DNA of 63,016 bases, filler included, from Asterionella formosa (lineage: Eukaryota), in assembly GCA_002256025.1 (NCBI GenBank). It is 26 parts of 26 records of this genome, joined end to end, with 100 filler letters (N's around TTAATTAATTAA, not from the genome) between each part and the next. Parts side by side here need not be neighbours in the genome. Positions count along the whole stretch, not along the records: positions 48,604 to 50,923 come from NKIB01015430.1; 25 more parts are not named here. One strand, written 5' to 3'. How positions within the stretch are numbered: the stretch's first letter is position 1; every line of letters begins with the position of its first letter. Made by a program: the position numbers and the translations under genes. Shown piece by piece: positions 7,220 through 55,761 of this stretch. The notes under the pieces are model-generated. The model made no database searches and was not told the origin of the DNA. It saw nothing but the letters and a program-made list of their open reading frames with translations.

Positions 7220-7319
7220 NNNNNNNNNNNNNNNNNNNNNNNNNNNNNNNNNNNNNNNNNNNNTTAATTAATTAANNNNNNNNNNNNNNNNNNNNNNNNN
7301 NNNNNNNNNNNNNNNNNNN

Positions 7320-9656: not shown

Positions 9657-9819
9657 NNNNNNNNNNNNNNNNNNNNNNNNNNNNNNNNNNNNNNNNNNNN
9701 TTAATTAATTAANNNNNNNNNNNNNNNNNNNNNNNNNNNNNNNNNNNNNNNNNNNNATCCATGTTACTACTACCGGTAGATCAATTCATAGCAAATGAGC
9801 CGGCTGCTCATTCTCATTG

Positions 9820-28316: not shown

Positions 28317-29118
28317 TGTTACTAAACCCTTACATAGGAGGTATCCTTATCCTTTCTTGTATTGTTTATTTAAGGGCAAGAAATGGTCGTTTGCCTGTGG
28401 CAACACTATTCGAATTTGGTTATGATAAACCCAAACACAACCTCCAAATATTTTCAAAAGGTCACATCAGCCAGGTGCAATAAGTTCCAACAGTGGTACG
28501 CATTTTAGTGAATTTGTTACATCCATTGTCGAGCTCCCATCATAATGAATCGTAAGACAAAAGGTAAGCATCTGGATAAGGAGGATCGTTATGAGAAACC
28601 GCAAATTGACATGACTACCAAACCAGCCATTGACACGGCCACTACCTTGACAGCCTTATCGGCAAGGCGATTCAATCCCATTCCTCAAAAGCGTGCATTC
28701 ATAACTAAAACGCCGCGTATACAACGCGCCCTCAGGAGTGATGGGCCGGTCCAAACACCGGAGTTGCTAAAAAAAATACCAGGAGAGAAAAGGAAATTTC
28801 GACCTGATCCGGCTGAGGCAGACTCTGGATCATTGAAAGTTGCGCCATCGAAGGAGGAGGAGGAGGGTATTCCAGTGCTGCGGGAAGAGTTGAAAGCAAT
28901 ACGATCTGATATGGCGCAGATGATGGCTGTGTTTATGGGTGCTATGTCTAACTTTCAGCCTCAGTGTCAGGATGAACTTCAAACATTAACAGAAGCGGTA
29001 TTATCTCATGAATCGAAAGCCACAGTTGGACCAACACAACAGTTGTTTGAACCTGCACTGTGTCCTGTTTGTCAGGTGCAGTTAAACTTTCTGTCCGCTG
29101 CCACAGACCTACAGCTTC
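28317..29118 (+). mobile_element. Possible LTR retrotransposon 5' end (LTR end, PBS, gag-like ORF 28545->)
   Basis: ...CCAACA (to 28492), then TGGTACGC (PBS-like) and an ORF about 50 nt later that is open to the contig end. The LTR start is uncertain and no diagnostic gag motif is seen. Confidence 0.4.
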
Positions 29119-29218
29119 NNNNNNNNNNNNNNNNNNNNNNNNNNNNNNNNNNNNNNNNNNNNTTAATTAATTAANNNNNNNNNNNNNNNNNNNNNNNNNN
29201 NNNNNNNNNNNNNNNNNN

Positions 29219-31544
29219 ATACTGACCAACCATTGCGCCTAGATAGCGGCAAGGTGCGTTCCCTGGATCTTCAACAACCTTAAGTGTAAAATAACAAGCT
29301 AATTCTTTGACTAACTCATCAGCTGCCGCTGAAATGAGCATAACATCATCGACGTAGACCAATGCATATTCATAGTATGCTGAGCCATCCAGTTTTGTTG
29401 CTTTCCTCAACCACAGATCTGGATCAGCCTCACAAGCATAGAAATGCAAGTGATCACGTAACACAGAAGCCAGATGTGCCCGAAAGGCGGCACCAGCAGA
29501 CTTCAGACCATAAAGAGCACGAACAATCTTCAGCACACGACCTTTCAGCGGGCCAAATTCGTCCCCTGCCACAACATAATAACGCTCTGTCACAGGCGCT
29601 GTTAAATAAGCATTCCCAATGTCTGTCAGCCGTAGATTTAATCCATTTAGACCGGCAACCAACATGGCAATGCGAATTGTTTCCCTAGAAACGACACTTG
29701 AATATGTGATTGCCTTTGGGGGGTCAGTCCTATGACCTCCTGCGACATACCTAGCCTTGCGCGTGAAGTCCATCTTGACATCCCAGACTATATGTCCCGG
29801 AATCTTCTTGTACCCAGAAACGTGGGTTGCCTTTTCTGGCTGAACTTCAAAAGCTATCATCACTGCAGACATCTCCTTGCGGAGAGCATCCATCCAAAGT
29901 GTATTACCATTTTCATGGTCCAACCTTGCTGCATCGGGAATGCTACTTGGCATTTGGACCCCAAATTTAAAACCAGCTCGGTGGTGTCTACTCTGTGTTG
30001 CCTTGATGATTCGTTTCTTGCGTCTTAAGACCATTGGAACCCACCAATCAAAAGCAGGCTCAGTTTCGATTTGGTTCGCTTTGGCATATTCAGCAACTTC
30101 AATTGGATTTGTTTCCTTCAGAGTCTTTAATGGGAGCCAGGATGTAGATCCGTCCCTCCATTCGACTTCTAGATCCCAACCAGTTGTTGTCTTCTTCTTA
30201 TAATGTTTCCCGTTTCGCTGGAAGTATTGATCACTCTTCTCCACAGCCTTCCTTGAATCACGGCGATGGTCGACAATTTCTTTGAAGAGTTGGTACTGTC
30301 TACCCTCCTCGTCTACCTGACTGAGGAGATGCTCTGCCAATATATTGTATGCGCTTTGCTGTCGCTCACCATCTAAGAATTCGACCTCATAAACCCTGGA
30401 ATCTAACCTTGGAAACCTGTGCTTTCGCCCAACCAGGTTCCCGTTTGCATCCCGCTTTCGTTTAATGACCACTGCAATCATATCGCCCTCCTTGTGTGGA
30501 AGTACAACCTGAGCCTTGATCAGTGGATCGAAACTTGGACCATTAGGATCTTCTTCCAGATCTTCATCTGTAGGGAGAATGCCATCAGGGGTAGCCTCGA
30601 AGATCTCTTCTTCAGGCTCATCTACCTCAGACTGGAGGATAGCATCATTATCATGGACCCCAACATGCTCCTTTATCCTAGTCTCAAATTCTTTCATTTC
30701 ATCTCTCAGCATTGGATACTTTAAATAATCATCATCGACAATCGGCCTCACAGTCGACCGAGCGATGTACCGCCCATTCGCCTTAAGTACATAGTAACAT
30801 AAAGCTTGCCCAACGCTCTTGGAGGGGCCGAGCCATCTCCCGAGTTTCCGTCGGGCCAGGCCACTCTCGTCCATATCATTGGGATCATAGTAAATCACAA
30901 ACTGATAGAAATCGAAATCTGTATACTCCGAAATATCAGGAGTCTCACCTGTCATTACTTCATATGGAGATCGACCCTCAAGTGCAGGTCTAGACATGAG
31001 CTCACGGATGTTGGAGGTATATTCCGCTGCAAAACACCACAGCATGTCTGGACATCTGTACCTATTCATGATACGACGCCAATGCGTCTTGAATTGTCCA
31101 ATCTCGCTCTCAGCTCTGTTCATCCAGGGGCTGTGAGGCTCTGTTGTTGTGCGAGGAACTAAGTGGATCTTCCGGACTCTCTCGAACTCTGTGAAGTCCC
31201 CCGTTTCCGCAGCTGCATTGTCTGAGTGGATACCTAGTTCTGGAATCCCATATTGCCGGATGGCCGCATTGAATCTATCCCCACAATCTGCCTCAGAGCG
31301 CATTGGATACACCTTGGCCCAACACTGATCATTACAGAAAAGTTGTGCACATGTGTGTCCCCTCACCGACTTCACCTTGTCCTTGGGAAACATGGTATCA
31401 GTGTACCACCTAGTACGAAGGTGAGGGTATCGTAGCTGTCCTTGACGCGTACGAAACCGGCGGGAGAGCTCTTCCATTTGTGGGTAAAACCGAACTGCTC
31501 TTGTTGTAGATGCCTGCAGGGTACTCGCTGCAGTTGCCAAACTT
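29219..31544 (-). mobile_element. Ty1/copia (diatom CoDi-like) pol fragment: integrase, chromodomain-like insert, RT; uninterrupted frame
   Basis: Integrase YTDTMF / HSDNA / EPHSPWMNRAE; RT motifs DVKMDFTRKARYVAGGH, DIGNAYL, ALYGLKSAG and YVDD; integrase-before-RT order. Confidence 0.95.
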
Positions 31545-32700
31545 NNNNNNNNNNNNNNNNNNNNNNNNNNNNNNNNNNNNNNNNNNNNTTAATTAATTAA
31601 NNNNNNNNNNNNNNNNNNNNNNNNNNNNNNNNNNNNNNNNNNNNTTGACCGTATGTTTGGAGGAATGTGTATTAAACGTATTCATTACTTCCAATTGACA
31701 TTGAACCATTTCATTCATTCAGTTTTTAGTAAGTTTTTTTGGATTCCTGATTGTGTGTTTTTTGATTATATTTGTTTGCTTATTCTCTTCTCTTTTTAGT
31801 TGGTGAAACCGAAACTAACTTTACGGAGTATAATAAATCCGATTTTATTTTTTGGGATACTTCTCTGTATCAGTTTGTTAACCTGGACACTTGTAATCAT
31901 TCCTCCGAGTACAACTGGGCTTTCCTCCTATTATTAGCTCCTATCAGCTTCTTCCGAACAGGAATCAAGAGTCACAATCATTACTTACTGGGTCCAGTAA
32001 GATCCTTCAAGCACAGGCTCAGCAAGCAAGGAAAGTGTTTTCTTGAAACAGTTCATGCCTAGTCAATGGGTTGACGTTTTGCTGGAATGATGGAACACTG
32101 AAGTACTACAGAGAGCTTCTTGTTGATATTGAACAACAGAACGCAATCGAAAAGGAAGGAGTATCAAACAGTGAGGGTAAGCCCGACATTGAAGGTAGGC
32201 AAGACTATTTTCGTTTTCAAGAGTTGACAAGGCATGACTGGGATAATTACAATCAAGAACATAAAAAGTTTGTTTGGAATGATCCCATACCTTCGGATAC
32301 ATCCAAGAATGTATATTCTACCAACCTCCTTGACTTTGAAGAAGAGGATGAGGAACTTGGCGATAGTAGTTGGCGGTCATTCAAACATTTCACAAAACAA
32401 AAAGATGTTATCTTATAAATAGTAATTAATAGCGTTCAATTACATATAAAACATTCCTTATCTGAACCTTCAATTACAAATTTCATAAATTAGTCCATCC
32501 TGTTCCATCATGTTGCACTAAGAACAACGAAAACTTTTGACTACGACCACAACAGTGGTGCCTCCAACCAAAAACCCAGAAACTGAACAAGAACTTAGAT
32601 CGTCTGATTGGCTGGAGTCACTTAGAAAAGATGTCGAAAGTAGTATGAGCATAAATTTAGTTAGATTACTAGGCACCAACATCTATGAATAAAATTTGCA

Positions 32701-32982
32701 CATTCCCGTCATCCCCTTTGTCTCAATACCCGGTCGGAACATGACGTGGCTACTGTGAAACTATACCTATGACTACGTCAGCACTGTGAAACTGTAGATT
32801 TGCCCTACCAGCATTCCCGTCATCCCCTTGTTTCAATACCCGGTCGGAACATGACGTGACTACTGTGAAACTATACCTATTACTACGTTGGTACTGTGAG
32901 ACTGTAGGTTTGCCCTACCAGTATTCCCTTGTTCTTCCCCTTTGTTTCAATACCCGATCGGAACATGACGTGGATACTGTGA
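32701..32982. repeat. Tandem repeat, ~111-bp unit x2.5
   Basis: Units start at 32701, 32812 and 32922 (cattcccgtcatcccc..cggtcggaacatgacgtg..actgtgaa). Confidence 0.9.
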
Positions 32983-33970
32983 ATGAGGAAATGGAAACAC
33001 AGTGGTCCCTCAGGAAAACTTCACACAGAATTCGATCTTCTACAGGTGATAATGAAAGTGGCTGATAGCCATAACATTGATTTAATACCAGAACATGTTA
33101 AGGCACACCAAGACAATGACTGCGCTTATGAGGACTTGTCATGGAAAGCCAAATTAAACTGTGATTGTGACCATCAAGCCACAATGGTGCTGACCTGCAC
33201 ACAATGTCTTGGTTCTCTAGCACAAACATATCAACTACCTCCGGGACATTCAGCATCCCTGCAAATACGCAACACTGTGGTGACAACAAACATGCCAATG
33301 GCCATTCGCAATGCGGCATATCGTGATGATATGGAAAAGTATATAAAAAATATATAATTCAAATGGCTGGATGGGATACAAGAGAAATTTACGACATGGT
33401 GGATTGGACAGCAAGACACTAGGCAAGCAAAACACTCAGACATTCACGGAAAATGACAGTATTCAAGTTGTAATTTAATTTGTTGGCGACGTTTCGACAC
33501 CAGAGTAAATATGATAAGAGCATGGATAACAGATGTTTTCGATGTAAACGCCTCAACGAGGACATAATCATGTGATTACTTGCCCAGTTAATTAAGACTT
33601 CAGCACGGGAGGAGCTGCTACATCAGGCAATGGAGTCAGCTATCATGGGTCCAGGAGCATGTCACTATGTAGCTACAATAATGAAAGAGGGACTTAACCA
33701 ATGGCTAAATGGCAGGAGTTCTCCATGGGAAGGACCTATTCCCCATGCAGCGGACGTTGTAGGGAATTTGACTTTTGAGGCCTACCTGAATCAAATGGAT
33801 ATTGGGTGGGACCAAGCGTTCAAAGGCAAAGTAAGGAAATTGTAGGGAGTCGCAACGGTTACGCACAGCAAAGAAAAAGTGGATAGGGATGGCGTACTGG
33901 CGGAAAAGTGGAGCGCTAGGGTTATTTCAAGTTTATGGGATATGGCCATTAAGAGTTGGATTATACACAA
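32983..33970 (+). mobile_element. Non-LTR retrotransposon (LINE) remnant: RNase H C-terminus and downstream zinc-binding region, degenerate
   Basis: EFDLL..EHVKAHQD..LNCDCDHQA (RNase H), CFRC..ED..H..C remnant and QMDIGWDQAFKG, with several frameshifts. Confidence 0.75.
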
Positions 33971-34230
33971 NNNNNNNNNNNNNNNNNNNNNNNNNNNNNN
34001 NNNNNNNNNNNNNNTTAATTAATTAANNNNNNNNNNNNNNNNNNNNNNNNNNNNNNNNNNNNNNNNNNNNAGAATTCTGTATCGTGTTCTTATCGTGGGT
34101 TTTGAGATGCTGCAAGCAAGCTGGCAGAATGATTTACAGTACGACATCATATTTATCGTACCAGGAAGTCTTATAAAAAGGATACCGGTACGACTTACGG
34201 TATCTCGTATTCATCTACCGATACGGTACA

Positions 34231-36393
34231 GTAATTGGTAAAAATTAAACCCAAGATGTATTTTCCTGTAGGCCTCTCTTATGTGTCTACTGGGTCATTT
34301 TAATACTGGCACGGTTTTGATCTGAAATGCAAGTTGAAGGACCGTGTTACAACAACAACAGTATGTAGATATTCGAAAAATTAAATCATAACTTGAGGTT
34401 ATTATTATATTCAAACCACGCGTCAGACTTGATTTTGTGTGGCAAGTCTGGACGTGTTAAAATAACCAACCCTAAAATCACCTCTCTTTTATATCATGTA
34501 CATTTATGATGTATTATTATTGGTATGTTATCTACATATGTGTAGTATTTAGCTATAGGTACCCTCGTACCTGGTACCAGGTACCGGTATATTTTGTTGT
34601 TGGACAGAAAATTATACCCGTAGTGACAGCTAGTGCACTAGCAATCAAGTAACACCGTTTACACAGGCAGTGATCATGAATGTTTGTTATTTCGCTGTTA
34701 TTGTCATCTTGTTACAACCAAAACCAAACTCTCGTTTTTCTTTGCCTGTCTCATCCCTTCTAAATTTGAACTGAATTCGTTACCACATAATCTATACAAT
34801 CTCCTCCCAAATTACCAAAATCATTTATTCCAATTTAAGCATGTCATACACAAGTGGAAAATTCGCAGCTCAAGCAAAACAAGTTGCAGCAGACAATAAG
34901 GCTGGTTATCTGGAAAGCACCATTCTTGCTTGATTTTTCTTGCTACGCCTTTCCGTCCGAGGTGGATGGCATCCCATCTACAACAGTGACAGAAGAAAAG
35001 TCAAGTTCTTTGGCTTTCTATGGTATCAATCAAGACGTCATCAGCGACCCAGAGGACAACCAGGTCAATGTAAACCTGTGGAAGAACAATTATCAAAGGA
35101 TGATTATGAATCTGTAATTTCTAACACTGATTGGATTTCTGAGAAGCCAATTGGATATAGTGTACTCAATCAATATCAATCAGCCATCATAGATTTGCAT
35201 GCACAGCAACAAGATGGAGGATGCAACAACATACCCAAGGAAGTACAAATGTCTGGCCATGTGAAAAGATTGCTGAAGACAGTAAAAATGAGAAAGACAC
35301 AAATTGCAAAAAGCAGTTTTGATGAAAAATTGACAAGTGAATTCACGCCATACAGTGCTGCTCAAGATATCCCAAGATTTGAAAATTTTTTCTTTCAAAA
35401 AATTCGTTATCATCCAATTATTCAGTGGCATCTTTACGTGATCGATATTGTCTTTTGATGACAACAAATGGGATCTTAAGAGGCGAGTCACTCTTTAAGT
35501 GCGAACTTAGTGATCTTTGTTCCTTGTTACACAACAAGGATTAAAATATTCTAGAGGATATTTTAATTCATGTGATGCGCATTGCTACTGGGAAAGCAAA
35601 TGGGTTAAAGACTCTTTATGGACGTTTTATTCGACATTGTGATGTCAATGAGTGTGCTATTGGTGCTCTTGGATTTTATTTAATGGCAAGATTTATGCAA
35701 AGTGGAGAAGCAGAATCATTTGATTTTACTTCAAACAAAGCCTGGTTCAATATTAAGCTGTTGACAGATTCTCAGGGCTTTGACAAGCAACACTATTTCA
35801 GTAACTGATCAGGCATATGCAAGTGACACGAAGAATGATTGCAGACACCTTGGCATCAATTCAAAACATTTCGTGCATTTTGGTCGATAGACTGGTTCAG
35901 ACAAAGCAGAATTGGATGAACTTGATGGCTATAATATCAATGACCTTAGAAATTGGAATGTGGATACTCGACGTGATGTTTATTCAGCTAAACTGCCAAT
36001 GAAAGCCATGCGTGTTATGGCTGGCAATCAGAAGAAAAAGGAAATGTTTTTTGCCATAAGATCACATCAAACCTTCAATGACCCTGCAACAAACAGTCTT
36101 TCCATTTATTGAAAAAGGAATTGAATCTATTGATGCAGCTACCAATTCTACCGCCTGTGCTTTTCTTAATTTACTCTCTTGCCTCCGTGTCGTCATTCTG
36201 CAAGATGCAGCAACAATGATATTGAATGGTCGGGGTCATTTTTTGTTCACATTGGATGTGTTCAACTGTGAAGAGTTCAAAGAATTTTTAAAGAATATGA
36301 GTCATCATCTGGATTTGGTTCAGGATCCAGTGGATCTTAGAATAGACTCTATTTTACCTGGTTTCAGAGATCGATTTACAAATTTGCATTCTG
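34231..36393 (+). mobile_element. Crypton-type (CryptonF/Ndc10-II-like) element, defective copy B
   Basis: Near-identical to 2658-4781. Retains RNWN..DVYS (W and the putative catalytic Y) but has stops and frameshifts. Confidence 0.8.
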
Positions 36394-36965
36394 NNNNNNN
36401 NNNNNNNNNNNNNNNNNNNNNNNNNNNNNNNNNNNNNTTAATTAATTAANNNNNNNNNNNNNNNNNNNNNNNNNNNNNNNNNNNNNNNNNNNNACCAGTA
36501 CCTGGCACCGGTAGGGTTACCCAGGACCTGGTGCTCAGTATTCCTACTCCGTACGGATACCAGTATACAGGAAGCATCGGCCAACACCCAAGAAAATGCT
36601 TCATGTGTATCCAGTGTGGCCAGTTTGGGATTGATAGACCTCGCAAACCATGCCAATCAAACGGATATAAGTATAACCAATCAGAATATGAATAATATGG
36701 TGGGCACTGACAATGGAACTTTTTGTACAGGTGATACCTCAAGCTAGGGGGCTGGAACCTTAAGGTTCCTGCATTTCAAGCCTGGTTTAGAGGTAGGGCT
36801 TAAAAAATGATATTGAGTCAGAGTACTCAAACACACACTTTGTACGAGTAAAGCATAAATGTGTATCGCTAAACGGAGCTTTCACCAAAATACAACCTTT
36901 CCATATGCTTAGATGCAGTCTTCTGAAAAATTAGGGGTATAGGTCAACGCTATATATCTTCGGGA

Positions 36966-37108
36966 TATAGGATCTGGCGAAAAACTGCAGAAAGGAACTT
37001 CGGTTTTTAAACTATGCTATAAAGACTAGAAATTTCGGGGGAAATCACTTTATTTGGCATAGTAAAAAAACCGAAGTTCCTTTCTGCAGTTCCTCACCAG
37101 AAGTTATA
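36966..37108. repeat. Fold-back inverted repeat (~140 bp)
   Basis: Perfect 26-bp arms at 36983-37008 and 37066-37091, with imperfect extension inward and outward. Confidence 0.85.
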
Positions 37109-37749
37109 CACTAATGCTATTTAAAGGTTACCTATGTATCTAAATCGGCTTCAGACCCAGCCAACGTTGAGCTATCGTCGTCCGAAAATTCGACAAAATC
37201 GGCCTTTTCTATGGTCTCCAAAACATCGGAATCAGAACCACTCAGAGCCGAAACGTCATCATCTGAATCAGAGTCTGCTTGTGATGCAACATTTATTCGT
37301 AAAATTTCCTGTACCAAAACTTCCATTATAAGTGCGCGCAGTTTTATAAATGTACTGATTGGCTATCGCGAACTACTTACTTCTGTTTGATTTCACGAGG
37401 GACACACACCGGTCACATTCTTGGATGCACATGTAACATTTCCTTGGGTGTACTGGTAGGCCATCACTTTGTCAAGTGCAGGTACCAGTGAATGATCATC
37501 ATTGGACATTATATGTGTGGTACCTGGTACCATTATTACCTTCACATTTATAGCGCCTTTAAACTACTCTATTTGTGATAGGGCAGCCAGCATGGCGCTT
37601 CCTGGCGTGAACAGCCTGGGTGTTCTTAAATACTAACCCTCCTGATATCATCATAACATGGTATGTATTGACTTCTGGCGCTGTCAAGCGGGGATGTGTT
37701 GTGGTGTGGTGGGACTCTATCAACCTGCTATCGATGTGTGGAGTAGTGC

Positions 37750-38816
37750 AGAGTGGTGCTGGAAACGTGCTAAGGCTGGATGGTTTTGGGTCATTCTATC
37801 TCTTTGTCCTGTGACCTGAGAAGAAAGTGTGAATATAGGTTTGTGCTTATGGTTGTTTGGTTGACCGCACCATGGGTTGTCGGGGTGCCAATGGTGTGCT
37901 GCTTTTTCTCGGAAAGAATTTGTGGATGTATTGCTGTCCCTTTCTTGCCATTTCGCCGATTCCTCAAAGAGAAACTCGGCCTTCTCCAGAAACCGTCGTT
38001 TGGAGCCTAATTTGAATCTGAGAAGATCCTCCGTGGTTGGTGAAACAGATGTCTATCACTTAGACATTTGTCATATTGTTGAGCATACTGGACATCAATC
38101 CTCACATCATATTTGGACTGGACGATGTGGGTATTTTTTCCCTGATGTAGAGCCATGTTGCAATCTTCCCATGCCTGGTTGGTCAGACGCCTCATTTCTA
38201 TAATCGTACTCTGGACCCACTGTAGGGCCTGTGCCTGATTGAATTCCTGAGGCTGGGAGAGATCTGTGTGTAGTAACTTGATTGCTACCTGCCACTCTAT
38301 CGAAAGATACCCACGCAGAGTGAGCGCTCTCCCAATTGAGACCTGGGCCTTTACAGCGCTGCAAATGAGCCTTTTCTGAATTTCTGAGCTGTGAGACGCA
38401 AATTATATTTTAAAATCATTGGGTTGTTTTTCATCGAGCAGAAATTTCAGATCCCCAAATATTGTTGCTACTGCCCAGCCTGCTTTGATCCTCTGGAGAT
38501 GTGAGATAGCTATTGACAGCCTTTGTCCCAATGGTTCACCACTTTTAAATCGTTACATAGCAGCAAATGTTCTGTGTTTTCAAATGCTTTACAGTGAGGA
38601 CCACAGCCACTCTGGAGTTCCTTTTGTCAGAAAGAACCTTCTCTCCCCTGTGGGAAGCCAGCAGCCATGAATAAATTTTGTGAGCATAGTTTTTTTCTGG
38701 TGTGTCGTTTTACCTAATGCACTTGAAAATGCCTCCCAATGAATGCTATCATAGACAAAGGTAATTTTGTGTTTGCGAACGAAAAATTCCCTGTATGCTT
38801 CTTCTTGAATTGCTGT
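37750..38816 (-). mobile_element. Degenerate LINE-like ORF2 C-terminal region
   Basis: Minus strand reads YDSIHWEAFSSAL..KTMLTKFIHGWL, then Cys/His remnants, with many stops. Similar in character to 32983-33970. Confidence 0.5.
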
Positions 38817-39555
38817 NNNNNNNNNNNNNNNNNNNNNNNNNNNNNNNNNNNNNNNNNNNNTTAATTAATTAANNNNNNNNNNNNNNNNNNNNNNNNNNNN
38901 NNNNNNNNNNNNNNNNAGTCAACGAGTTGCTTATTGTCATCTGGAAAAAGGAATCGTCTGCGAAATCGGAGTTTGCATCTAACATGCTGAGAAGACCTTT
39001 GTCCCTGGTCTTTTGATATCAAGTGTCCTATTTGTTCAGACAAAACAATCCAAAATTGATGTCAGGGACTAATGGATGATGAGGATTTAGCTTGCAAGAC
39101 CCGCCATTGTTGCATGTATATAGAAAAAAGACGCAAACACTCGAAATCCCAATCTGGAATCCAAACTGGGTACTTTTCGGCTCCTGTGAATCCGGTCGGT
39201 CGGGTTGGTTTATTAAACGGAAATCAGGGCCGTTCTCATCATTTTTTTCGAGTATGTGAGGGTCGTTCTTATCATTTTTTTTCGTGTATCACGGAATTTG
39301 AATTTTTGTGAAAATGTATCAGCAACGGTAACTCGATTTGAACTGAATTTCATTCATTCCAAAAGTTTCACTGTATCACTAATTTGTGATCACATTGTAT
39401 CATAGAGTAACATTGGTCTTCAACGGCAACTGGCTGGCGACGATCATGTGTATACCCATCCAGAATATAATGATGGTCTTGATATCAAGCAACAACATAA
39501 AATATAATTACCGGTAAACTATATATTGTATTAGTAACACACCATTGCATGAATC

Positions 39556-40875
39556 ATGCCGTTGCCATTTGATTTACTTGATGATAATGATGATGACAGT
39601 AGTAATCTTGATTTCTTCTTCCTCTGTCATTTATCTAAGGAAGCAGAGGAAAAAGAACACTCATCCAAACGACAAAGGCGACGCTGTAAACGGCAGCTTC
39701 AGTCATCCGAACGACGACGACAACGAAGGCACAAGTGGCACCACGAAAGAATCTCCTGGCAATAACATGTCAAGAAACTCAATCATGAGATTGCTTTCGA
39801 GAAGACATACAGAAAGTCACACAGAGCATTCAAAAAACTCACCTCCATGCTGGAAATTCAGATTGCAGGGAATTATTCCAAATGTGGCACTTTTGAGCCC
39901 ATAATTCCCGAAATTGTGGTAGCCTTTGGTTTGCGATGGCTGGCTGGTGGCAGCTACATCGACATTCGTCATGCCTACGGTTTTAGCATTGCTTCACTTT
40001 ATCGATGTCGTGATTTATTCATTGATGCTGTACTAAACTGTGAAGAACTCGAAATTATTTTTCCAAAAGAAAAAGAAGAATTTATCAAATTGGCTTCCAG
40101 CTTTGAATGCAAAAGCTCAGAGGGCATGATGAGAGGATGTGTTGGTGGCTGCTATTGACGGCTTCCAAGCCACCATCAACCGCCCGACTATAGTTGAAAG
40201 TGGCAACAACCCTGGTTCATTTTTTTCGGTCACTACATGACTTATGGAATCAATGTCCAGACTGTTTGTGATGCTGACTCAAGATTTATTTATTTTGGTG
40301 TGATTGCACCGGGAAAATGCAGTGACCAAGTAGCTTTTGAACGAAGTTCCATTTTCGATCCAGTTGCAGCATTCAACACAGGTTTTTATCTGGTCGGCGA
40401 TGCAGCTTACACATTGTCTGATATAATGCTTGTTCCCTTTGTTGTCTCACAACGTGATGATCCAACACAGGATACATTTAACTTTTCCCTTTAACAGCTA
40501 AGGATAAGAATAGAAATGTCATTTGGTCTTCTTCAGACAAAATGGTGTGTTCTGAAAAAAAACCTATCGACAAGCTTGGAAACATCTGCACGCATTCTTG
40601 ATTCATGTGCTCGACTTCATAACTATGTGATTAATGAGAAGATAATTGATAACGAGATTATGGATGATAATCGAATACTTACAGAGATAGTTCCAGTCAG
40701 TTTGTCACCCCTTGGTTGGGGCTACTTGCCAACTGTGGAACCATTGTGTATATTGCCTGGAAGCTCTGTGATGCGAGATGTGATTCTTACCAGATTGCAA
40801 ACCTTGGGCTTGCAACGACCTCCTGTGAATATAGAGAGGAGAAGGAAAGAATTACACGAAATAAATTTAATGTAG
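39556..40875 (+). pseudogene. Harbinger (HARBI1/DDE_Tnp_4-like) transposase pseudogene
   Basis: GLRWLAGGSYIDI, GCVG-AIDG, YGINVQTVCDA, LVGDAAY, FNF..RIRIEMSFGLLQTKW and CARLHNY; stops at 39763 and 40492; frameshift at ~40150. Confidence 0.92.
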
Positions 40876-40905
40876 ACAAATATATAATTTATTCATTATT
40901 TGGAT

Positions 40906-41241
40906 TTAATCTGATGTTTCACCTTCTGAAAGCAGATGAAAATAGTGATCCCGCTTTCTCTTGCATATCTTAATTTCTAGTCGAGCCTGAACTACATCAG
41001 AATTATTGGAGTCATACCCATGATTCTCCAACTCTTCCAAATCCTTCCAAGCATTCTTGAGACGACTTTTATAGAGATCCAGAACATCTAGGATCTCTTT
41101 CTCGCGTCTTGGTCCTGCTGAAGACTGAAGCACTTGAAGTTTCACTGCATTTACTCGTTCAAAACACTCTAATGCATTTGCCATTTGTACCATAGAAGAG
41201 GAATGATGGGACAAATTGGATGAGGTAGATGAACATTTTCC
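40906..41241 (-). CDS. C-terminus of the probable Harbinger second (DNA-binding) ORF
   Basis: Helical ORF convergent on the transposase, as is usual in Harbinger elements. A Myb/SANT domain is not visible in this fragment. Confidence 0.45.
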   Translation of the reverse strand, partial: GKCSSTSSNLSHHSSSMVQMANALECFERVNAVKLQVLQSSAGPRREKEILDVLDLYKSRLKNAWKDLEELENHGYDSNNSDVVQARLEIKICKRKRDHYFHLLSEGETSD

Positions 41242-43944: not shown

Positions 43945-44220
43945 TAAAAATAAACACGGTTTGGGGGTAAAATATATGCATGTACAGATAGAAAAATATG
44001 CACTGTAAGCCACCGCTATGCAATAATCTTAGTGACTTTGGAAAAATTATTTCTTCATGGCTAGATACACTGAATCAAAACTGATTCCTTAATAGTATAG
44101 CAGAGAGCATTGTCTAACATAAGCGTTGTACTTGCGTCAAGTTTTGATCGTTGAATTACATAAATATTTTTAGTCGAAAGATAGAGTAAAATAGCGGTGG
44201 CTTACAGTTTTTAAGTGGTA
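43945..44220. mobile_element. Repeat-element end abutting gypsy pol (homologous to 25340-26118)
   Basis: 18-bp inverted repeat ACTGTAAGCCACCGCTAT at ~44002-44019 and 44191-44208; ends TTTTTAAGTGGTA. Confidence 0.7.
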
Positions 44221-46083
44221 CTTATTCATCTCATGCCAGTGTCATGCTATATGACCTGATTTTACCAGAATTTAATCGATCCGCTCATATTTTACAACAA
44301 AAGTGTCAAGTCTTTAATGGTCTATGCACATTTGATGTTATTTTTGGACGTGATTTCCTCCGTCAAGTTGGTTTAACCATTGATTTCGTAAACAACACCA
44401 TGTCCTGTATGGATATGATCGTTCCTATGCATCCGCTCACATTCTTTGATGATAGAGAACGTTTACAAGATGTATTATTATATTTCGATGCACCTATGAT
44501 TGTGGAATCTTCATATGCGCTGGAAATTAAAGCTGCTGAATATAATTATATAAATATTGATACAGTGGTGGATAAACAAATACATTTGACAACAATACAA
44601 CGATCATGTTTACGATCTATATTGGTTAAATATCAAACATTATTTGATGGCAAATTAAAAGTCTATCCTCACAAACAGGTACATTTGGAATTATTATTAA
44701 ATGCTGTCCCTCGTCATCAACGAGCATATCCGGTCGCTCATATTCATTTAGAAGTTTTCAAAACTGAATTACAACGATTATGTGATATTGGAGTCCTACA
44801 AAAATGTGGTGCTTCTAAATGGGCATCTCCCACTTTTATTATTCCAAAAAAGGATGGAAGTGTCCGATGGGTATCAGATTTTCGTGAACTTAATAAAGTC
44901 ATCAATCGCAATATATATCCTTTGCCTCGAATACAAACTATTCTCACTAAACGTGCTGGATATGTATTTTTCACCAAATTGGATGTTTCCATGCAATACT
45001 ATACTTTTGCATTGGATGTGGAGAGTCAAAACTTGTGTGTTATTTCAACTCCATTTGGTTTATATAAATATTTACGCCTGCCTATGGGGGTGAAACAATC
45101 ATCTGACATTGCACAAGAAACTATGGAACAGATCCTTAGTGATTTAGATGATGTGGAAATTTATATTGATGATGTGGGTTGTTTTTCAATGAATTTTTCA
45201 GATCACCTTCATTTATTGGACACTATTTTACATCGTTTACAGATAAATGGTTTTACAATTAATCCATCTAAGTGTGAATGGGCCGTCCAAGAGACAGATT
45301 GGTTAGGCTATTGGTTAACTCCTAATGGACTGAAACCTTGGTCTAAAAAAGTCCGAGCATTGATTAATATGTCTTCACCTACCAATCTTAAACAAGTTCG
45401 ATCATTTCTCGGTGCTGTTACTTACTATCGAGACATGTTTCCTAGACGATCGCATGTTCTTGGACCACTTACGGATTTAATTGGAACTAGTCCCTTTGTC
45501 TGGTTACCTATCCATCAACAAGCTTTTGAAGAAATGAAAGCATTGTTAGTTGCAGATACACTCATGCGTTATCCTGACCATAATCTCCCTTTTCATATCT
45601 TTACTGATGCCTCTGATTATCAATTAGGGTCGGTCATTATGCAAAATGATCTCCCAGTTGCTTATTATTCTCGCAAATTATCTGCTGCTCAAAAGAATTA
45701 TACTACTATTGAAAAAGAATTACTTTCTGTGGTAGAAACTTTCAAAGAATTTCGCTCTATGTTATTGGGCGCAGTTCTACATGTTCACACTGATCATCGA
45801 AATCTTATTTATAATACATTACATACACAACGTGTTCTACGATGGCGACTTTACATTGAAGAATACCATCCTACTTTTCATTATGTGAAAGGGACTGACA
45901 ATGCTATTGCAGATTCCATCTCTCGCCTCCCGAGGCTTGAGTCTTTGGTGGAGGATGATATTGATATTGGACCGAAATCTCCAACATCAACTTCCACTTC
46001 TACTTTTTCAATTGAATTAGATGATGAACCTCTGCTTACATGTTTCCTTAATCATCCCATCTTGACAGACAATATTCAATATC
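44221..46083 (+). mobile_element. Ty3/gypsy pol fragment (protease C-terminus, RT, RNase H)
   Basis: IFGRDFL, WASPTFIIPKKDG..DFRELN, RLPMG, YIDD, FTDASDYQLG, YTTIEKELL, TDHRNL and NAIADSISR in an open frame. Confidence 0.96.
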
Positions 46084-46396
46084 NNNNNNNNNNNNNNNNN
46101 NNNNNNNNNNNNNNNNNNNNNNNNNNNTTAATTAATTAANNNNNNNNNNNNNNNNNNNNNNNNNNNNNNNNNNNNNNNNNNNNAGTATTTATAACATATA
46201 TGTATGATATAGCGGTATATAGCCATGCTGCTTGCTTGGTTGCGCCTTTTTTTGTCTCGATGATGACACTGCCGGATTCAGAGCCGTCGTTGACTCTAAC
46301 AAACACAAACAAATCTTCTAAACATTGTTCATAGGCAACCACAGCAAAGAAATACACTGCATTAATTAAACAGTTACCCAAGATACAACAGCCACC

Positions 46397-47315
46397 ATGA
46401 GAGCGCCATTGAGATCAGGAATGCTTGGGCGAGGCCGAGGAGATGGAGGCCGTGGTGGTCGAGGCGGAGGAAGAGGCGATGGGGGACGCGGAGGGGGGAG
46501 AGGAGGAAGAGGAGGATTTAGAGATGAAGGACCCCCAGATCAGATTGTTGGTAAGATTTTGTTCACCATAGGAATGGATGCTGTCCAGATGCTTCAGCAA
46601 GGGAGGCTACGAGAAATTTACAATGGACCCCAACTAACCATCTCACTATCTTCCAAATACACAGAGGCAGGAAATGTTTTACATGAATGTGAGTCTGAAC
46701 TTGTTTGCAAGTGGAGCGTAGAGAACAAAGTACCATACTTCAACGCTGGTGTTTATCTAGAAAATAAACGCAAGATCGGAAAGATCGATGAAATATTGGG
46801 GAAAATATCAGAAGTATTTTTTACCGTCAAAATGGATCCGGGTGTAGTTGCCAAGTCTTTTCAGAAGGACGATGTCGTCTATATTGGTACAGATAAGCTA
46901 TTGCCTCTAGCGAGATTCACAAATCCTCCGAAAGAAAGTGGCGGACGTGGAGGTCGAACAGGACGAGGAGATGGACGAGGAGGTGGACGGTACGTTATAT
47001 TTTGCCTCACTTTTGCCAAGTCGTACTGATTCTTATTTTTCAGCTGACAATAATTCGGTTTTTTTTGCAGTGGTGGGGGCAGAGGATTTTCTCCAAGTGG
47101 CCGTGGCGCGGCCAGAGGAGGAGGTCGAGGTGGTTCGTTCGGTCGTGGTGGCGGGGGCGGAAGGACGTTTTCTGGAGGAAGAAGTGCGGGGCGGTGAGTG
47201 CTCAAAGTGGACTTATTTGTTTTGATCTTTTGCTATGTACATTTCTCTACAATTACTTACTAGCTTGATTTTATTTTCTAGTGGTGGCGGTAGAGGTGGT
47301 CGGGGCAGATTCTAG
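46397..47315 (+). CDS. GAR1: H/ACA snoRNP subunit Gar1, complete, 4 exons (46397-46550, 46665-46989, 47071-47193, 47282-47315)
   Basis: RGG-rich termini around the core [33 protein letters not shown]. Three GT-AG introns splice in frame to a C-terminal RGRF-stop. Confidence 0.95.
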
Positions 47316-47598: not shown

Positions 47599-48503
47599 TC
47601 ATTGTAGAGGCATGTCATCGGAATCGAAACAAGGCTCTGGGTATACTGACTCATCGGAATCGTCGTGGTTCACAACAGACCCCATTGGTGATGTGGAAGG
47701 TGACGCGGATGGACTGCCTACCACGGCCTTATCATCGATGTCCATACCGTCGTCTCGAGCGGTATCGCCAACTTTACCAGTGCGTCCCATGACGACCGCA
47801 GGCAATGGACATTCCAAATCTTTCCCATCAAAGACGACATCCCGTCGCCTATAGTAAAGTACGTACGCCGCACTCGAAACTACTTCGCTGGGGTCGATGT
47901 TGGTTGTAACCCGACTGTCGTCGAAATGGCACCAAACTCCATCCGTGCTCATTGCATAGGCTGTGTAATGACCTCCTCCGAGGCCACCATAATGGTTGCT
48001 CACAGCATAACAGTCATAGATCGTTTTTTCGTTGTCTGTCCAATGCATAACCTCTTTTGTCAAATCAAGTCCCTTTAAAGGGAATTCGATCAAGTAATCT
48101 ATTTTGTCACGTCTATGAGTTGAGGCGGAGTAGTGGAATCGCTTGAGATGGATGATTAAAATAGGTGGGGCACGATACAGGTGGAACTGCTTCCATGCTC
48201 GAACGTGCTCCTTGCATTGACTGCAATACCACATTTCAGTCTCTTCAAGTTGTTCCATTTGACAGTACTTCTCAATGCACTGTGCGACAGTGATGGTCTT
48301 CTGGCCCATTCTTGTCCTTGTTCCTTCAAGTGTGTATTCGTCTTCTTCAGTGTCTTCCCAACTTGCCTGGTCGAAGCACCGTTCGCTGAGATCATCGGGC
48401 CAATGAAGATAAATAGCTCCATCTGGGCCGACAGTGTCAGCGACGAATTCACTTTCTTTTGGGTCCGTGGGCGATGCAAGGGGAAAGAGGCGGCTTCCAC
48501 TCG
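47599..48503 (-). CDS. Ubiquitin-specific protease (peptidase C19, USP4/11/15-like), C-terminal part
   Basis: WYCSQCKEH, LIIHLKRF, YDCYAVSNHYGGLGGGHYTAY, FDDSRV and AAYVLYYRRR (His box). Confidence 0.95.
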
Positions 48504-48603: not shown

Positions 48604-49176
48604 AAAAGTCATTGGATCCTTGCCCTCTCGAACCTCACCCAATCCATCATTGTTTTCAAGAGCAATAATTCGGAAGAAACCTCGCATTAAATTGCTTAAC
48701 TCTTGCTCAAAGGTAGCAGAGAAGCCTGTTCCATTATGTAGACGAAATAAATTGTAGATTGCAGATCTTTTGTTTCCATAACCGCTCTTGGACAGCCTCT
48801 CTTTTGTACGCCAATGCCGCAATCCTTGCAAGTAGACCATGAAGCCTGATGGTGTGATCTCGTTTTGCAAAATAACAGGTTCCTCTGCTGTATTCTGTAG
48901 CAAAAGGGCAAAGCCTGATTTGATGTGCATCCCGCCTTGCCTTGTTCCCATTCCTTCTGCTTCAATTTCCAGTTGTTGGAGTCGGTTTCTAGCATTTGCT
49001 GTGAGCCACCCAGTTTGATGCTCCAAGCACCACCTTGCAAACAGGAGGCTATCAGCGATGTATGCCCGCCTTGTTCCACCAGCCACAATATTTTCTATCA
49101 TCATTTGTTCATTAACATCCTGGAGAGGATGCCCATGAATAGGGACAGTATTTGCCATCATGAGGTGGAGATGCAA
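48604..49176 (-). mobile_element. N-terminal part of a CryptonS-like tyrosine recombinase protein
   Basis: TRRAY....F..W, F..YL, Y.NKRSAI..LFR and EGKDPMTF resemble the SAM-like core-binding region preceding the YR catalytic domain in stramenopile Cryptons. The catalytic domain is not in the contig. Confidence 0.6.
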
Positions 49177-49237
49177 TGAATGATGAGTATGATGTGGTGT
49201 GTGCTTTTGAAATTTCTTGCTTGATGCCGATCCTCAA

Positions 49238-49430
49238 TGAAATCGCCCATAAACACATTATACTCATGTAATTTTCATCATATGAATGCATTTTTTTCCT
49301 CGCTGAAATCGCCCATAAACACATTATACTCATGTAATTTTCATCATATGAATGCATTTTTTTCCTCGCTGAAATTGCCCATACACACATGATACTTTCG
49401 TAGTTAGCATCAAAGTGTATAAAAAAAGAT
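49238..49430. repeat. 66-bp tandem repeat x3 (third copy degenerate)
   Basis: Units start at 49238, 49304 and 49370. Confidence 0.9.
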
Positions 49431-49999
49431 TCCATCAGGACAACTACTACATATGTAAAATGCCACGAGAAAACAGCTACCAGAAAAAAACGGCCATTTG
49501 TCCGGTATTCCCCTCTAATGATCAAACTTCACTCCAAGTTCAACATAGAAGTGCTAGATATACCGTGTGAAACTATAAACTGGGAATGAACTGAAGTTCA
49601 GACATTGGTCGAAAAACCGGCCTACTGTCCGAACATTTCTACGAAAATCAGCGTAAGTGTCCGGTAGATGTCTGATGATGAGTTGCACAACCATTTTACC
49701 GGACACTGAGGTCGGTGTGTTCCGTTTGTACCAGGTAGCTACATACGACGAATTCTACACACGAGTATATGGAAAAACGGAATCCAGAATCAGCTTGGAT
49801 GTTATGCATGATGTCGAAAATGAGCATCACATCTTTACCGGTAGCGGATATCCCGGTATTTAGCGGCTGGCATGATGCATGTCTCACCTGCATACTGATA
49901 TAGGTATATTATGTATGGCTGATGCACTGTGGCTGGTCAGATTAAAGATGGTACTGAAATACCTGTATTTGGACTTAAGTAATGGTAAAAAATCATACA

Positions 50000-50923
50000 C
50001 TATTCTTCTAGCATGCCCATGGATAAATGCTTTTCTTGCTTGCGAAGGATCAACACCAATGTCTGCCATCTTAACTGAGGATGGCGGCGTATATGATGCT
50101 GATTGTTACCATCATTTACCACCAGAGTTTCTACTACTTCATAATACATTGCCAGAACTGAGGACACTGTATGAGTTTCAACCCACTTTCCAGTAGCCCT
50201 GACTTTGTTCTCTAAGTATACCATCAAGAATCTTATGTCACACAGAATTTTGCGAGCCTTTCTAGTACCACGACCCTCCTCTGCCATTATGAAATCTAGA
50301 TGGTAGACATCTCTTCCTTGCAAAATCTTAAGGGGAGGAACATCATTCCTCACATCTCCCAACCACCATTGCATCCACAAGTCTAAGGGACCAAGACTCA
50401 TTGGTAACCTCCATGTCTGGGGTAGAACATGGAATTGCCCACCATACATATGTAGTGTAAACCGCTTTGGTGCAATCATAGTAGTGCCATCTCTACCAGT
50501 AATTCCAGGTCCTCCATTAATAACCGCAAGTTCTGCTCCTGAATGTAATGAATTTTGCCCAGCTGCTGCAACAGCTGCCCTAAGGTCACTGGTCCCTTGA
50601 CGAATTAGGTCAATCATTCTGGTATCACCCAACATTCCACCATTTATTTGTCTCTGGTCAAGTTGTTTTGTAAGTCTCTCATCAAACTGATCTACAAGAC
50701 CTAAGATTAAGCGCTGCAGCCCCTGCACTTCTTGCAATAGTGCAACATGAGGAGGTATCCCTGTGAATACCAGAATAGAAGATTCTGGGTCCCATGGATA
50801 TAGGACCCGTGTGTGGTTGCTGGCAAACTCAAGCCCAACCTCAGCAACTCGAAATAATGTGGACTGCCTCATTGGATGAGAATGATCCCACATTTCCACT
50901 TTCGCTCGATGAAGTACAATCGC
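50000..50923 (-). mobile_element. C-terminal part of a CryptonS-like protein
   Basis: HPMRQSTLF, FTGIPPHVALL, YGGQFHVLPQTWRLP..LWMQWWLGD..VPPL and QLRWQTL, as recalled from oomycete/diatom Crypton C-termini. Confidence 0.6.
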
Positions 50924-53037: not shown

Positions 53038-53442
53038 TGGCACTTTTTTCCTCTTTAAGTATTCGCTCCCAGTACACGTTTCCGTAGCCGCTACGTATTT
53101 GTCCGACATCTCAAGTGCTCCATGTTGTGACAACTCGTTTCTCTCTATTAAATTTTTCCATTATGGACGTTTGTTTCGCGTTTACAAGGGTAAGAAGATT
53201 GAACACAACGTATATGATGTGGATTTGTTCCTGGAATTCCAGACCTATGTTTGATGCTTCTTGGGGTCATAGTTTCTACCGGTATATGCATTGCAACGTC
53301 ATGATTTCGGCTTTAGATGCTGTTAGCGGACAAAGGAACGGANNNNNNNNNNNNNNNNNNNNNNNNNNNNNNNNNNNNNNNNNNNNTTAATTAATTAANN
53401 NNNNNNNNNNNNNNNNNNNNNNNNNNNNNNNNNNNNNNNNNN

Positions 53443-55761
53443 TCAATCTCTGCTTTGATTGCCTTGGTCCATTCGTCTTTTTCGTTACTTAATAGTGCCT
53501 GCTTGTAGCTCTTGGGTTCCAGTGGGTCAGAAGCTAGGCTCGTTGAGTGTGCTTCCTCACTAGGTTGGTACTCTTCGTTGGTATCTTCGATGGTGTCATC
53601 ATCCAATATTAGCGTGCGTGCTGCGGATGATTGCTGACGTGTGCCTGCACGAGTAGGAGTAGGTGAGGTCACAAAGCCTGTAGATAGCCTATTCATTTCT
53701 CGATCGAGCTTTGTAGATTTCGTAGCATAATTCGTACGAGGCTCGTTCGTATTCATACCACCTGCGACGGAATCTGCAAAGCTCACTCCCTTGGGAGTAC
53801 TGGGATCGTCTTGTTTCGTTGGTAGTAGTGTGGTAGCCCCTTGCTCGTCAGGAGGCATTGCATTGGTAGGTTTAGTAGGAGTGGAGGCCTTGAGGGTCGT
53901 GACTTAAGGTACCACTTTGGCCTTTGCCTTACCTAGTGCGCAGCCTTCACACGACTGAATCTTGCCCGTAGGTTCAATACCGAGGGACTTTAGCGTTGCG
54001 CGAAGGGATGCCTCGCTGATGTGGCCATATTTGTCGTGGGCCTCGTTGATGTCAATTTGCGTTGGTTTCTTAGTAGTTTTTGCCGTAGGAAGTTGCGTCA
54101 CTGTCTTGGTATTCGTTGGAGTAGGATCAGGTGTATGGTTTGTTGTCGAGTTGTGGATAAACAAGACCGTTTCCGATTGTAGGGTACCTTTTCCCTTGAA
54201 GTAGTAGAGGACGCAATGATCCTCACAAGAAAAGGTTAGTTTGTTGTCGTACCCTTCCTTATGTAGACTCAACTCAGACCCCTTCATGCGTGCCTCGCAC
54301 CCTCTGTTCTTGACAAATTGCCCGATACTGACGATATTCTTGTGGAAGTGAGGAGTGTAGAGTACCTTGCGTAGTAACATGGAGCACGTCTTGTTGGTAA
54401 TCAGAATATCACCTCGTTTCGTGCATACCACCCTTTACCGTCACCAACAATGACCGAGACGTTGACATTTTCGACGTTTGTCATGTATTCGTCAGTCATA
54501 GTGATGTGCGTGGTAGCCCCAGTGTCCGCGAGCCAGCGCTCCGTTCCGTTGCTTGATGCGCAGTATTGGTCTTCGTACCACTCGTCTTCCATTGTAGGGA
54601 CGAAACACACGCGTAGGAGTTCTTCAGTAGGAGTCTCGGTAGCTTTCTGCGTCACGTCCATGGTACCGGGGATATCGTCCGTCGCCTCCATACCAGTAAT
54701 CTCCTCGCACATTCCCACGTACATTCCGGTTTCTTTTTTCTTCTCGCCGCGTGGTGCGCGTTTTGGTTCCGGGCAGTCTCTTGCAATATGCCCGACATAT
54801 TTATTGCAATTATAGCACTTTATCTCATTTTTTTCGTTCGTACCGTTTGCATTCGTTCCGCTTGTGTTCGTTTTCGATCGGCACACGTCGGCCTTGTGCC
54901 CTTGTTTGCCGCAGTTCTTGCAGATACCTTTGTATTTCTGCGTGAATAGGGCGATCTCCTTTGCGCTCTTCGTGCCCTTTAGCTTTCGTTTGTAGAATGC
55001 TCGGATCTTTCCTTTCAATTCGTTGAGGCTGATTGTTGTCATGCCCTTGACGACTGTAACAACCTCGCTGTATTCCACTGGAAGCTTGTCGATTACGTTC
55101 GCAATCACTTCCATTTCTTTCTTCTCAAATGACGGGTCGATCGCCATCATCTTGCTTTGTATTAGATCGAGCTCAATGAACCATTCGTCTGGATCAGAGG
55201 AGCTATCGTTCAGCTTGCATTTGTTGAAATCGCTTGCCAGCTGGATCAGGTCCGACACAGAATGGGGGGCATACCTCGCTTCGAGGTTCTTCCACGCCAT
55301 GTATGCATCGCCATCGATCAACGTTTTCGTTTTGGCTTGGTTTACAAGTCCGAAGGCGATTCCGGTGCAGCTCATGATGAGCAACTGGTACACCTTGTCG
55401 TTGGCCTCGTAGATAGCCCTGACTCCTTTGTCTGTCTCGACTTTGTACTCTTCGTCAGAACACGGGTTGTGGTTCTTGGAGTACATCGTTCGGAATCCTC
55501 TTGCCTTCGCCAGAGCGAGCGTTTTAACGCTCCACTGGTACCAGTTCGTTTCGTTGCCATCAAACTTGATGAGCCTCATGCTCTCTTCAGACATTTCTGT
55601 AGACATGTTTAAACACTTAAGTCCGTTTATAAACGTGTTAAAGTATTACCTTTTGTATAGATCTATATCGTTAGACAAAGAAGACTATAGATAGAGACGT
55701 TCGTTTCTCTTTCCGTTTCTATATTCTTATTGTGAGTTTACTAGCTAATCTAGTTTAGGTT
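53443..55761 (-). mobile_element. Ty1/copia, same family as 7320-9656, internally deleted; includes the gag start (55606)
   Basis: gag (FDG..W..W, WKNLEARY, two CCHC knuckles) and protease. Frameshift at ~54432, stop at 53904, integrase core missing. Confidence 0.95.

What the first reader, a model, noticed from the sequence alone, without database searches (positions are those of the whole stretch)
48604..50923. Tail-to-head Crypton junction: C-terminus of one YR protein followed by the N-terminus of the next
Seen: within one contig and on one strand, a C-terminal fragment (ends 50000) precedes, across an ~820-bp spacer, an N-terminal fragment (starts 49176). Known: Cryptons are tyrosine-recombinase DNA transposons thought to move via excised circles. 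Inference: both halves belong to one CryptonS-like family. The contig then captures a right-end/left-end junction of a head-to-tail tandem array, an extrachromosomal circle, or a Crypton that targets other Cryptons. Both frames are uninterrupted, which suggests a young element.
Basis: partly seen in the sequence, partly recalled or inferred. Interest (0 to 1): 0.72.

Follow-up and report, generated by a model that had tools for sequence, protein, structure and literature searches.

The report
Crypton transposon joined end to end
This contig is the exact joint where the right end of an intact 3.1-kb Crypton-type jumping gene meets a left end; such joints recur in this alga's genome, several inside chromosomes, so it is most likely two copies stacked head to tail by the element's own cut-and-rejoin enzyme rather than a free circle.

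Summary
Both fragments belong to one element. Exact 127-bp contig overlaps close a 3,085-bp loop with an intact 748-aa tyrosine recombinase (R-K-HxxR-W-Y). A 57%-identical homologue folds like Flp/Ndc10/Cre, and relatives occur in diatoms and oomycetes (CryptonS-like). The ends meet at 49680-49679 and share one CA inside an 11-bp inverted repeat. Empty paralogous sites show insertion at CA with no base gained or lost. Seven of 49 flanked right ends in this genome abut a left end, against about 0.02-0.12 expected. Two such joints lie in 34- and 47-kb contigs, one joins an autonomous to a non-autonomous copy, and two put a younger end on a decayed one. Head-to-tail stacking is therefore real and chromosomal. 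The window's halves are 100% identical to the two ends of what is probably one insertion, so a circle cannot be excluded for this contig (tandem ~0.70, circle ~0.18). Relatives show end-joining in 13 of 62 families. The element is a known kind. My searches found no paper on tandem Cryptons, but this scan has noted them before, in this genome and others.

The parts
50000..50923 (-). 3' part of the recombinase ORF of the upstream unit (last 307 of 748 aa; GIPPHV motif, coiled coil and the conserved C-terminal domain), ending at the stop 50002-50000
   Evidence: C-terminal domain model pLDDT 88.8
49679..49999 (-). Non-coding right end of the element, ending ...GTGCAACT-CA
   Evidence: 51 genome matches to the 28-nt right-end motif, flanks diverging after CA
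49674..49680 (-). Crossover core: the shared CA (49680-49679) within the 7-mer CATCATC that left ends carry
49656..49707 (.). Junction dyad: perfect 11-bp inverted arms (49656-49666 and 49697-49707), 30 nt apart, one arm in each end; likely recombinase-binding sites
   Evidence: I19; fold z -3.0 to -3.7 for the 66-nt stretch; 0 of 30 shuffles give such a dyad
49162..49680 (-). Non-coding left end of the downstream unit, starting CA-TCATCAGAC
   Evidence: 46 genome matches to the 28-nt left-end motif
49231..49428 (.). 66-bp tandem repeat (two near-perfect copies and one decayed) in the 5' leader; four other autonomous copies lack one unit
48604..49161 (-). 5' part of the recombinase ORF of the downstream unit (first 186 aa, core-binding helical domain), running off the contig into C9299
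   Evidence: fold match of the homologue's residues ~60-217 to Cre/Xer N-terminal and ALOG domains

Best explanation
The contig is the precise right-end/left-end joint of an intact 3,085-bp Crypton-type tyrosine-recombinase transposon, most likely the inner joint of a chromosomal head-to-tail array made by the element's own recombinase. Shown: a single 748-aa ORF with a full catalytic set; insertion at a CA with flank-CA-left end, right end-CA-flank and an empty site with one CA; a joint that is exactly right end-CA-left end inside an 11-bp dyad; and frequent joints, several of them chromosomal. Inferred: the recombinase binds the two arms and exchanges strands at the CA core. An existing element end offers both a perfect core (CATCATC) and a bound arm, so it is a preferred partner. 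Identical dimers such as this one would arise by re-integration of an excised copy at its own or its sister's end, or by right-end x left-end exchange between sister chromatids. Mixed dimers would arise when a new copy recombines with the end of an older one.
For: Loop and ORF: (R220, K247, H331, R334, W359, Y368/Y371). Two contigs hold parts of both halves plus the middle in order (C9192, C5732). A contig from a wild sample joins the halves across about 765 letters, the same gap as in the assembly (X3). Fold of a 57%-identical homologue: Flp Z 15.9 (rmsd 3.5, 225 aligned), Ndc10 Z 14.1 (rmsd 15.6, 300) and 13.4 (rmsd 4.2, 233), Cre by Foldseek E 7.5e-5. Empty paralogous sites: 9 of 9 loci that reach the end of the C12938 flank continue with CA and a C900-like flank; at least 5 of 9 in exact register for C15284. 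Joints: 7 of 49 distinct flanked right ends against 0.02-0.12 expected. Seven of the 12 right ends followed by CATCATC are followed by an element left end, though only about 46 of an estimated 29,000-41,000 CATCATC sites are left ends. Chromosomal joints: C251 (34-kb contig), C14113 (47-kb contig, chromosomal left flank), C14174 (autonomous joined to a complete non-autonomous copy with a flank). Aged near-identical pairs: the C15058 left half differs from flanked C7737 by 1 substitution and 1 indel, and its right half has no flanked twin among the fetched loci; the C251 remnant is 98.75% identical to its neighbour's end. Relatives: 16 of 79 metagenome loci (13 of 62 families) are end-joined, including a 99.3%-identical true dimer, L205.
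Against: Both halves of the window contig are 100% identical to flanked contigs C900 and C12938, which look like the two sides of one insertion. That is exactly what a circle from that locus would give. No long read spans flank-unit-unit-flank. No raw-read depth was available (all runs were contigs). The flanks lie in a multi-copy repeat, so C900 and C12938 could be two paralogous insertions. A third empty-site search (C14485) found none among 9 loci. Loop-shaped metagenome contigs cannot tell circle from array.
Confidence: 0.7

Rival explanations
1. The contig comes from an excised 3,085-bp extrachromosomal circle of the intact copy between the C12938 and C900 flanks, the intermediate proposed for Cryptons.
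For: Both halves are 100% identical to the two ends of that copy. The graph closes into a unit-length loop. The ORF is intact, and the joint is the exact product of right-end x left-end recombination.
Against: Measured circles of tyrosine-recombinase elements are rare: 36 junction reads against 6,959 terminal reads for a Starship (bioRxiv 10.64898/2026.09.21.753150, passage) and about 0.001 per chromosome for bacterial SEs (PMC9345347, passage). Such levels would rarely survive assembly (inference). At least three of the six other joints in this genome are chromosomal. In wild run X7 a 51-nt junction piece has depth 26 against 122-125 for shared ends; it has only 23 letters on one side, so this is a hint.
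Confidence: 0.18
2. The joint is a rearrangement breakpoint: the recombinase joined the right end of one copy to the left end of an identical copy at another locus, deleting or translocating the DNA between them.
For: Crypton-mediated inversions and translocations are documented in Chlamydomonas (PMC9977147, passages). Further contigs identical to the right half exist (C8184, C8940). For the mixed joints C14174, C13350 and C14113 the outer flanks could not be shown to rebuild one empty site.
Against: The only flanked identical ends found (C12938, C900) rebuild a single empty target.
Confidence: 0.07
3. The contig is an assembler's mosaic of collapsed repeats and no such molecule exists.
For: The assembly is fragmented (15,436 contigs), and the element is split at repeat branch points with 127-bp overlaps.
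Against: The 127-mers across this joint are not shared with the six other joints. The joint is base-perfect at the CA core. A 124-nt contig with no difference bridges it (68 and 55 letters on the two sides) in lake run X1.
Confidence: 0.05

Closest known systems
CryptonS DNA transposons of oomycetes and the diatom Phaeodactylum tricornutum (Kojima and Jurka 2011, PMC3212892; abstract, passages and supplementary file 1 read)
   Same: About 3 kb, one tyrosine-recombinase ORF, no Pfam GCR1_C hit, C-terminal region conserved with oomycete homologues, no long terminal inverted repeats, non-autonomous derivatives sharing the ends.
   Different: The terminal repeat is an invariant 2-bp CA (5 bp or more in 17 of 42 right ends), not TATGG or the 7-bp CTGTAAG of CryptonS-1_PTri. 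It has 11-bp subterminal inverted arms. The paper does not mention tandem Cryptons (its one 'tandem' is in a reference title).
CryptonF-1_cRei of Chlamydomonas reinhardtii (PMC9977147, passages read)
   Same: Inserts by recombination at a short core resembling its own terminus, leaves a clean empty site, and begins its core with CA (CACCG / CAYCG).
   Different: CryptonF group, shown active in vivo. No head-to-tail Crypton arrays in the passages read. Activity of the present element is not shown.
Starships, circular intermediate of Hephaestus (bioRxiv 10.64898/2026.09.21.753150, passages read)
   Same: Eukaryotic tyrosine-recombinase element whose joined ends form a precise junction at a short microhomology.
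   Different: Giant and cargo-carrying, with a different recombinase family. Its junction is rare (about 0.5% of terminal reads), whereas here joints make up 7 of 49 right ends in the assembly.
Tandem arrays of Salmonella genomic island 1 (PMC2297512, abstract read) and strand-biased circularizing elements, SEs (PMC9345347, abstract and passages read)
   Same: SGI1 shows that tyrosine-recombinase elements stack in stable tandem arrays at their attachment sites. SEs show donor-derived crossover bases placed at one fixed end.
   Different: Bacterial, multi-gene and site-specific. The present element uses a loose target and one protein.

Membership tests
Crypton (broad sense, PMC13465315 and PMC3212892) | Tyrosine recombinase with intact R-H-R-Y catalytic set | tested here: met
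   R220, K247, H331-x-x-R334, W359, Y368/Y371 in the loop ORF, conserved in 66 aligned homologues; homologue folds like Flp/Cre/Xer
Crypton (broad sense) | DNA transposon without reverse transcriptase or DDE transposase, dispersed in many copies | tested here: met
   One long ORF in the 3,085-bp unit; 51 right-end and 46 left-end matches, mostly with different flanks
Crypton (broad sense) | Short direct repeat that is microhomology with the target; no true target-site duplication; no long terminal inverted repeats | tested here: met
   Empty paralogous sites hold one CA, filled sites one at each end; only 11-bp subterminal arms
Crypton (broad sense) | Moves through an extrachromosomal circle (proposed model) | not testable with these tools
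   Only assembled contigs were available
CryptonS | No GCR1_C domain, but a C-terminal region conserved among members | tested here: met
   No GCR1_C Pfam hit in the window peptides or in 66 of 66 homologues; the C-terminal peptide matches 78 of 104 homologues, including an oomycete protein at E 6e-21. ESM Atlas gives a weak lead to a remote GCR1_C relation (score 0.90, family on 33% of the cluster, low recognition)
CryptonS | 5- or 6-bp terminal direct repeats, mostly TATGG | tested here: inconclusive
   Not TATGG. Only CA is near-invariant (38 of 42 right ends); 17 of 42 share 5 bp or more (CATCA) with the left end. The published list has other repeats too
CryptonS | Stramenopile host | tested here: inconclusive
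   Host not named. Named homologues are from diatoms, oomycetes and Phaeothamnion; holders are freshwater and algal runs; a diatom is inferred
CryptonS | Clusters with Repbase CryptonS recombinases in a tree | not testable with these tools
   No Repbase sequences were available

The most novel reading that the evidence does not exclude
This Crypton family targets its own ends and moves by a copy-out route in which only one pair of strands is exchanged and replication resolves the rest, as bacterial SEs do. That would explain three things: left ends keep the donor 7-mer CATCATC (33 of 39) while right ends carry target bases (only 5 of 42 CATCATC); copy number rises; and arrays grow on old copies. 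A ~46-50-bp dyad at the joint, seen in 7 of 13 end-joined families of relatives, would be the conserved attachment site of CryptonS. Tandem joints might also raise recombinase expression, as circularisation does in a Starship.
Probability: 0.3. Interest if true: 0.65.

Novelty: new member of a known kind. Interest (0 to 1): 0.42.

Why it matters
Crypton transposition is still mostly a model, and no CryptonS attachment site or enzyme was characterised in the papers I read. This locus supplies an intact recombinase, its joined-end site, matching empty and filled targets, and about 40 natural insertion flanks per end, which is enough to set up a direct recombination assay. It also warns that an end-to-end junction in short reads is not evidence of a circle, because this family and its relatives stack in tandem.

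Tried and rejected
Pfam found nothing on either window peptide or on three middle fragments (0 of 5). It found only weak phage-integrase hits in 5 member rows of 66 homologues. A profile search of PDB sequences gave nothing below E 0.46. The C-terminal domain model had no solved-structure match (best Z 3.6, no Foldseek E<=0.001), which does not show a new fold. Two unrelated single-copy genes: rejected. Depth comparison of junction against body: not usable, since all runs were contigs, depths are summed, and the piece tables were cut (3,021 and 907 pieces not shown). Of 7 distinct runs laid, only X1 showed a piece bridging the joint by the 31-letter rule; X7 and X19 reached 23 letters across. 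RNA runs X9 and X19 hold parts of the element, but contigs cannot show transcription. An empty site for C14485 was not found (0 of 9 loci). The rest of the upstream C251 unit was not found in a further 20 kb. The dyad test on relatives used length and arm thresholds chosen after seeing four cases, and 6 of 13 families had no such dyad. Paper searches for tandem or self-targeting Cryptons listed no title on the subject; most listed papers were seen only as listings, Goodwin et al. 2003 was not seen, and Repbase reports are outside the library.

Full report
Observation. The window is a chain of about 2.3-kb contigs with N-linkers. The finding is one whole contig, G000:C15430. Its minus strand carries a 307-aa C-terminal fragment ending at 50000 and an N-terminal fragment whose first ATG is at 49161; 49176 is an in-frame TTG. 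Both frames run off the contig without a stop.

One element. A genome search with the contig gave 46 matches, most beginning or ending at query position 1243-1245. C9192 and C5732 hold parts of both halves plus the middle, in gene order, on one contig. Exact 127-bp overlaps link C15430 to C9299 to C12214 and back to C15430, closing a 3,085-bp loop with one 748-aa ORF. It has R220, K247, H331-x-x-R334, W359 and Y368/Y371. Y368 is the likely nucleophile by its spacing from W359 (Cre spacing, recalled). A contig of wild run X3 joins the two halves across about 765 letters, the same gap. A search with the middle found 104 relatives among 688 candidates, the named ones from diatoms, oomycetes and Phaeothamnion. 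A 57%-identical relative was modelled at pLDDT 84.6 and matches Flp (Z 15.9, rmsd 3.5, 225 aligned), Ndc10, Xer and Cre. The C-terminal fragment matches 78 of the 104 relatives and has no Pfam hit.

The joint. The right end finishes GTGCAACT-CA, the left end starts CA-TCATCAGAC, and the joint has one CA at 49680-49679. Perfect 11-bp inverted arms lie 16 and 12 bases from the CA. The window's left half is 100% identical to flanked C12938 and its right half to flanked C900. Those two flanks are the two sides of one site in a repeat: 9 of 9 paralogues that reach the end of the left flank continue with one CA and a C900-like flank, C900 lacking about 130 bp a little further on. A second element, C15284, shows the same in at least 5 of 9 loci; a third search found no empty site. 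So insertion adds and removes nothing beyond the shared CA, as expected for reciprocal site-specific recombination. Targets are loose: a purine six bases before CA in 38 of 39, and mostly TCAT after it. Inheritance is one-sided: CATCATC stands at 33 of 39 flanked left ends but at 5 of 42 non-junction right ends. A crossover confined to CA explains this, and so does exchange of one strand pair followed by replication.

How common. Patterns found 51 right ends and 46 left ends. After merging one pair with the same flank and dropping one end with no flank, 7 of 49 right ends abut a left end: C15430, C15058, C14174, C2127, C251, C13350, C14113. Random choice among 20,000-150,000 target-like sites would give 0.02-0.12; site numbers were extrapolated from 58 kb and 126 kb of sequence. 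C251 and C14113 are 34- and 47-kb contigs. C14174 joins an autonomous right end to a complete non-autonomous copy with its own flank. In C13350 and C14113 a right end close to the family sequence sits on a left end only about 75% alike. These cannot be circles of a single copy. C15058/C7737 and C251 look like near-identical dimers that have begun to age. Among 79 metagenome loci of relatives, 16 (13 of 62 families) are looped, permuted or doubled, one being a 99.3%-identical dimer. Seven of those 13 have a perfect 46-50-bp dyad in the non-coding stretch, against 0-3 of 30 shuffles per family; the thresholds were set after seeing four cases.

Circle or array. For this contig the sequence cannot decide, because a circle from the C12938/C900 copy and a perfect dimer there give the same contig. 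I favour the array (0.70). The family demonstrably stacks in chromosomes. Measured circles of tyrosine-recombinase elements are rare (0.5% of terminal reads for a Starship; about 0.001 per chromosome for SEs). The joint also recurs in a lake sample (X1). Against: no long reads, no usable depth, and flanks that lie in a repeat.

Comparison. It works like a Crypton and meets the broad definition. It is CryptonS-like in size, domain layout and relatives (PMC3212892: abstract, passages, supplement 1), but its terminal repeat is CA rather than TATGG, and no tree against Repbase was possible. Active CryptonF in Chlamydomonas uses a similar core-matching insertion (PMC9977147, passages). Tandem arrays are known for bacterial SGI1 (PMC2297512, abstract), and strand-biased circles for SEs (PMC9345347, abstract and passages). 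PMC13465315 (passages) gave the current definition. Six searches listed no paper on tandem Cryptons. Goodwin et al. 2003 was seen only as cited. Supplements of the bioRxiv Starship paper were not seen.

Verdict. A real, well-defined new member of a known kind. The scan has already noted tandem Cryptons in this and other genomes. What this locus adds is an intact enzyme with empty, filled and joined sites, and a count showing strong preference for element ends. Interest 0.42.

Noticed in passing
window 3266-4238 (+) and 34934-35458 (+): Fragments of a different, CryptonF-like recombinase element: 3765-4235 has an NDC10_II hit at E 2.5e-5, below the curated cut-off; 34934-35458 resembles 3266-3871.
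   Followed up: partly
L032 (G000:C251) 5279-5438: The upstream unit of this joint is only the last 160 bp of a right end, 98.75% identical to the neighbour's own end. It starts exactly at an internal ATGATG that, read backwards, resembles the left end; possibly a secondary recombination site.
   Followed up: partly
L138 (G000:C15085) 2322-2482: A right end followed directly by a second copy of the last ~125 bp of a right end.
   Followed up: no
L137 (G000:C2235) 1834-3700: A left end and a right end of the family face in opposite orientations, suggesting an inversion or an inverted nested insertion.
   Followed up: no
L140, L106, L297; L013, L115, L137; L157, L161: Different copies of the family sit behind the same flank sequence in other repeats: repeated use of the same site in multi-copy elements, or alleles.
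   Followed up: partly
window 50003-50500 (-): The CryptonS-type C-terminal domain folds confidently (pLDDT 88.8), has no solved-structure match, and gets a weak language-model lead to GCR1_C, hinting that CryptonS and CryptonF tails may be distantly related.
   Followed up: partly
window 49623-49680, run X19: A 2,891-nt contig of a poly(A) RNA run (depth 96) contains a family left end, perhaps an insertion in a transcribed region.
   Followed up: no
window 7268-9704, 53391-55645, 29171-31588, 44190-46139: LTR-retrotransposon fragments (copia-like gag/protease/integrase and gypsy-like reverse transcriptase; labels from recalled motifs, not from a call).
   Followed up: no
window 46370-47314 (+) and 47599-48503 (-): Neighbouring contigs hold a GAR1-like glycine-arginine-rich gene with introns and the end of a ubiquitin-specific protease (labels recalled); unrelated to the finding.
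   Followed up: no
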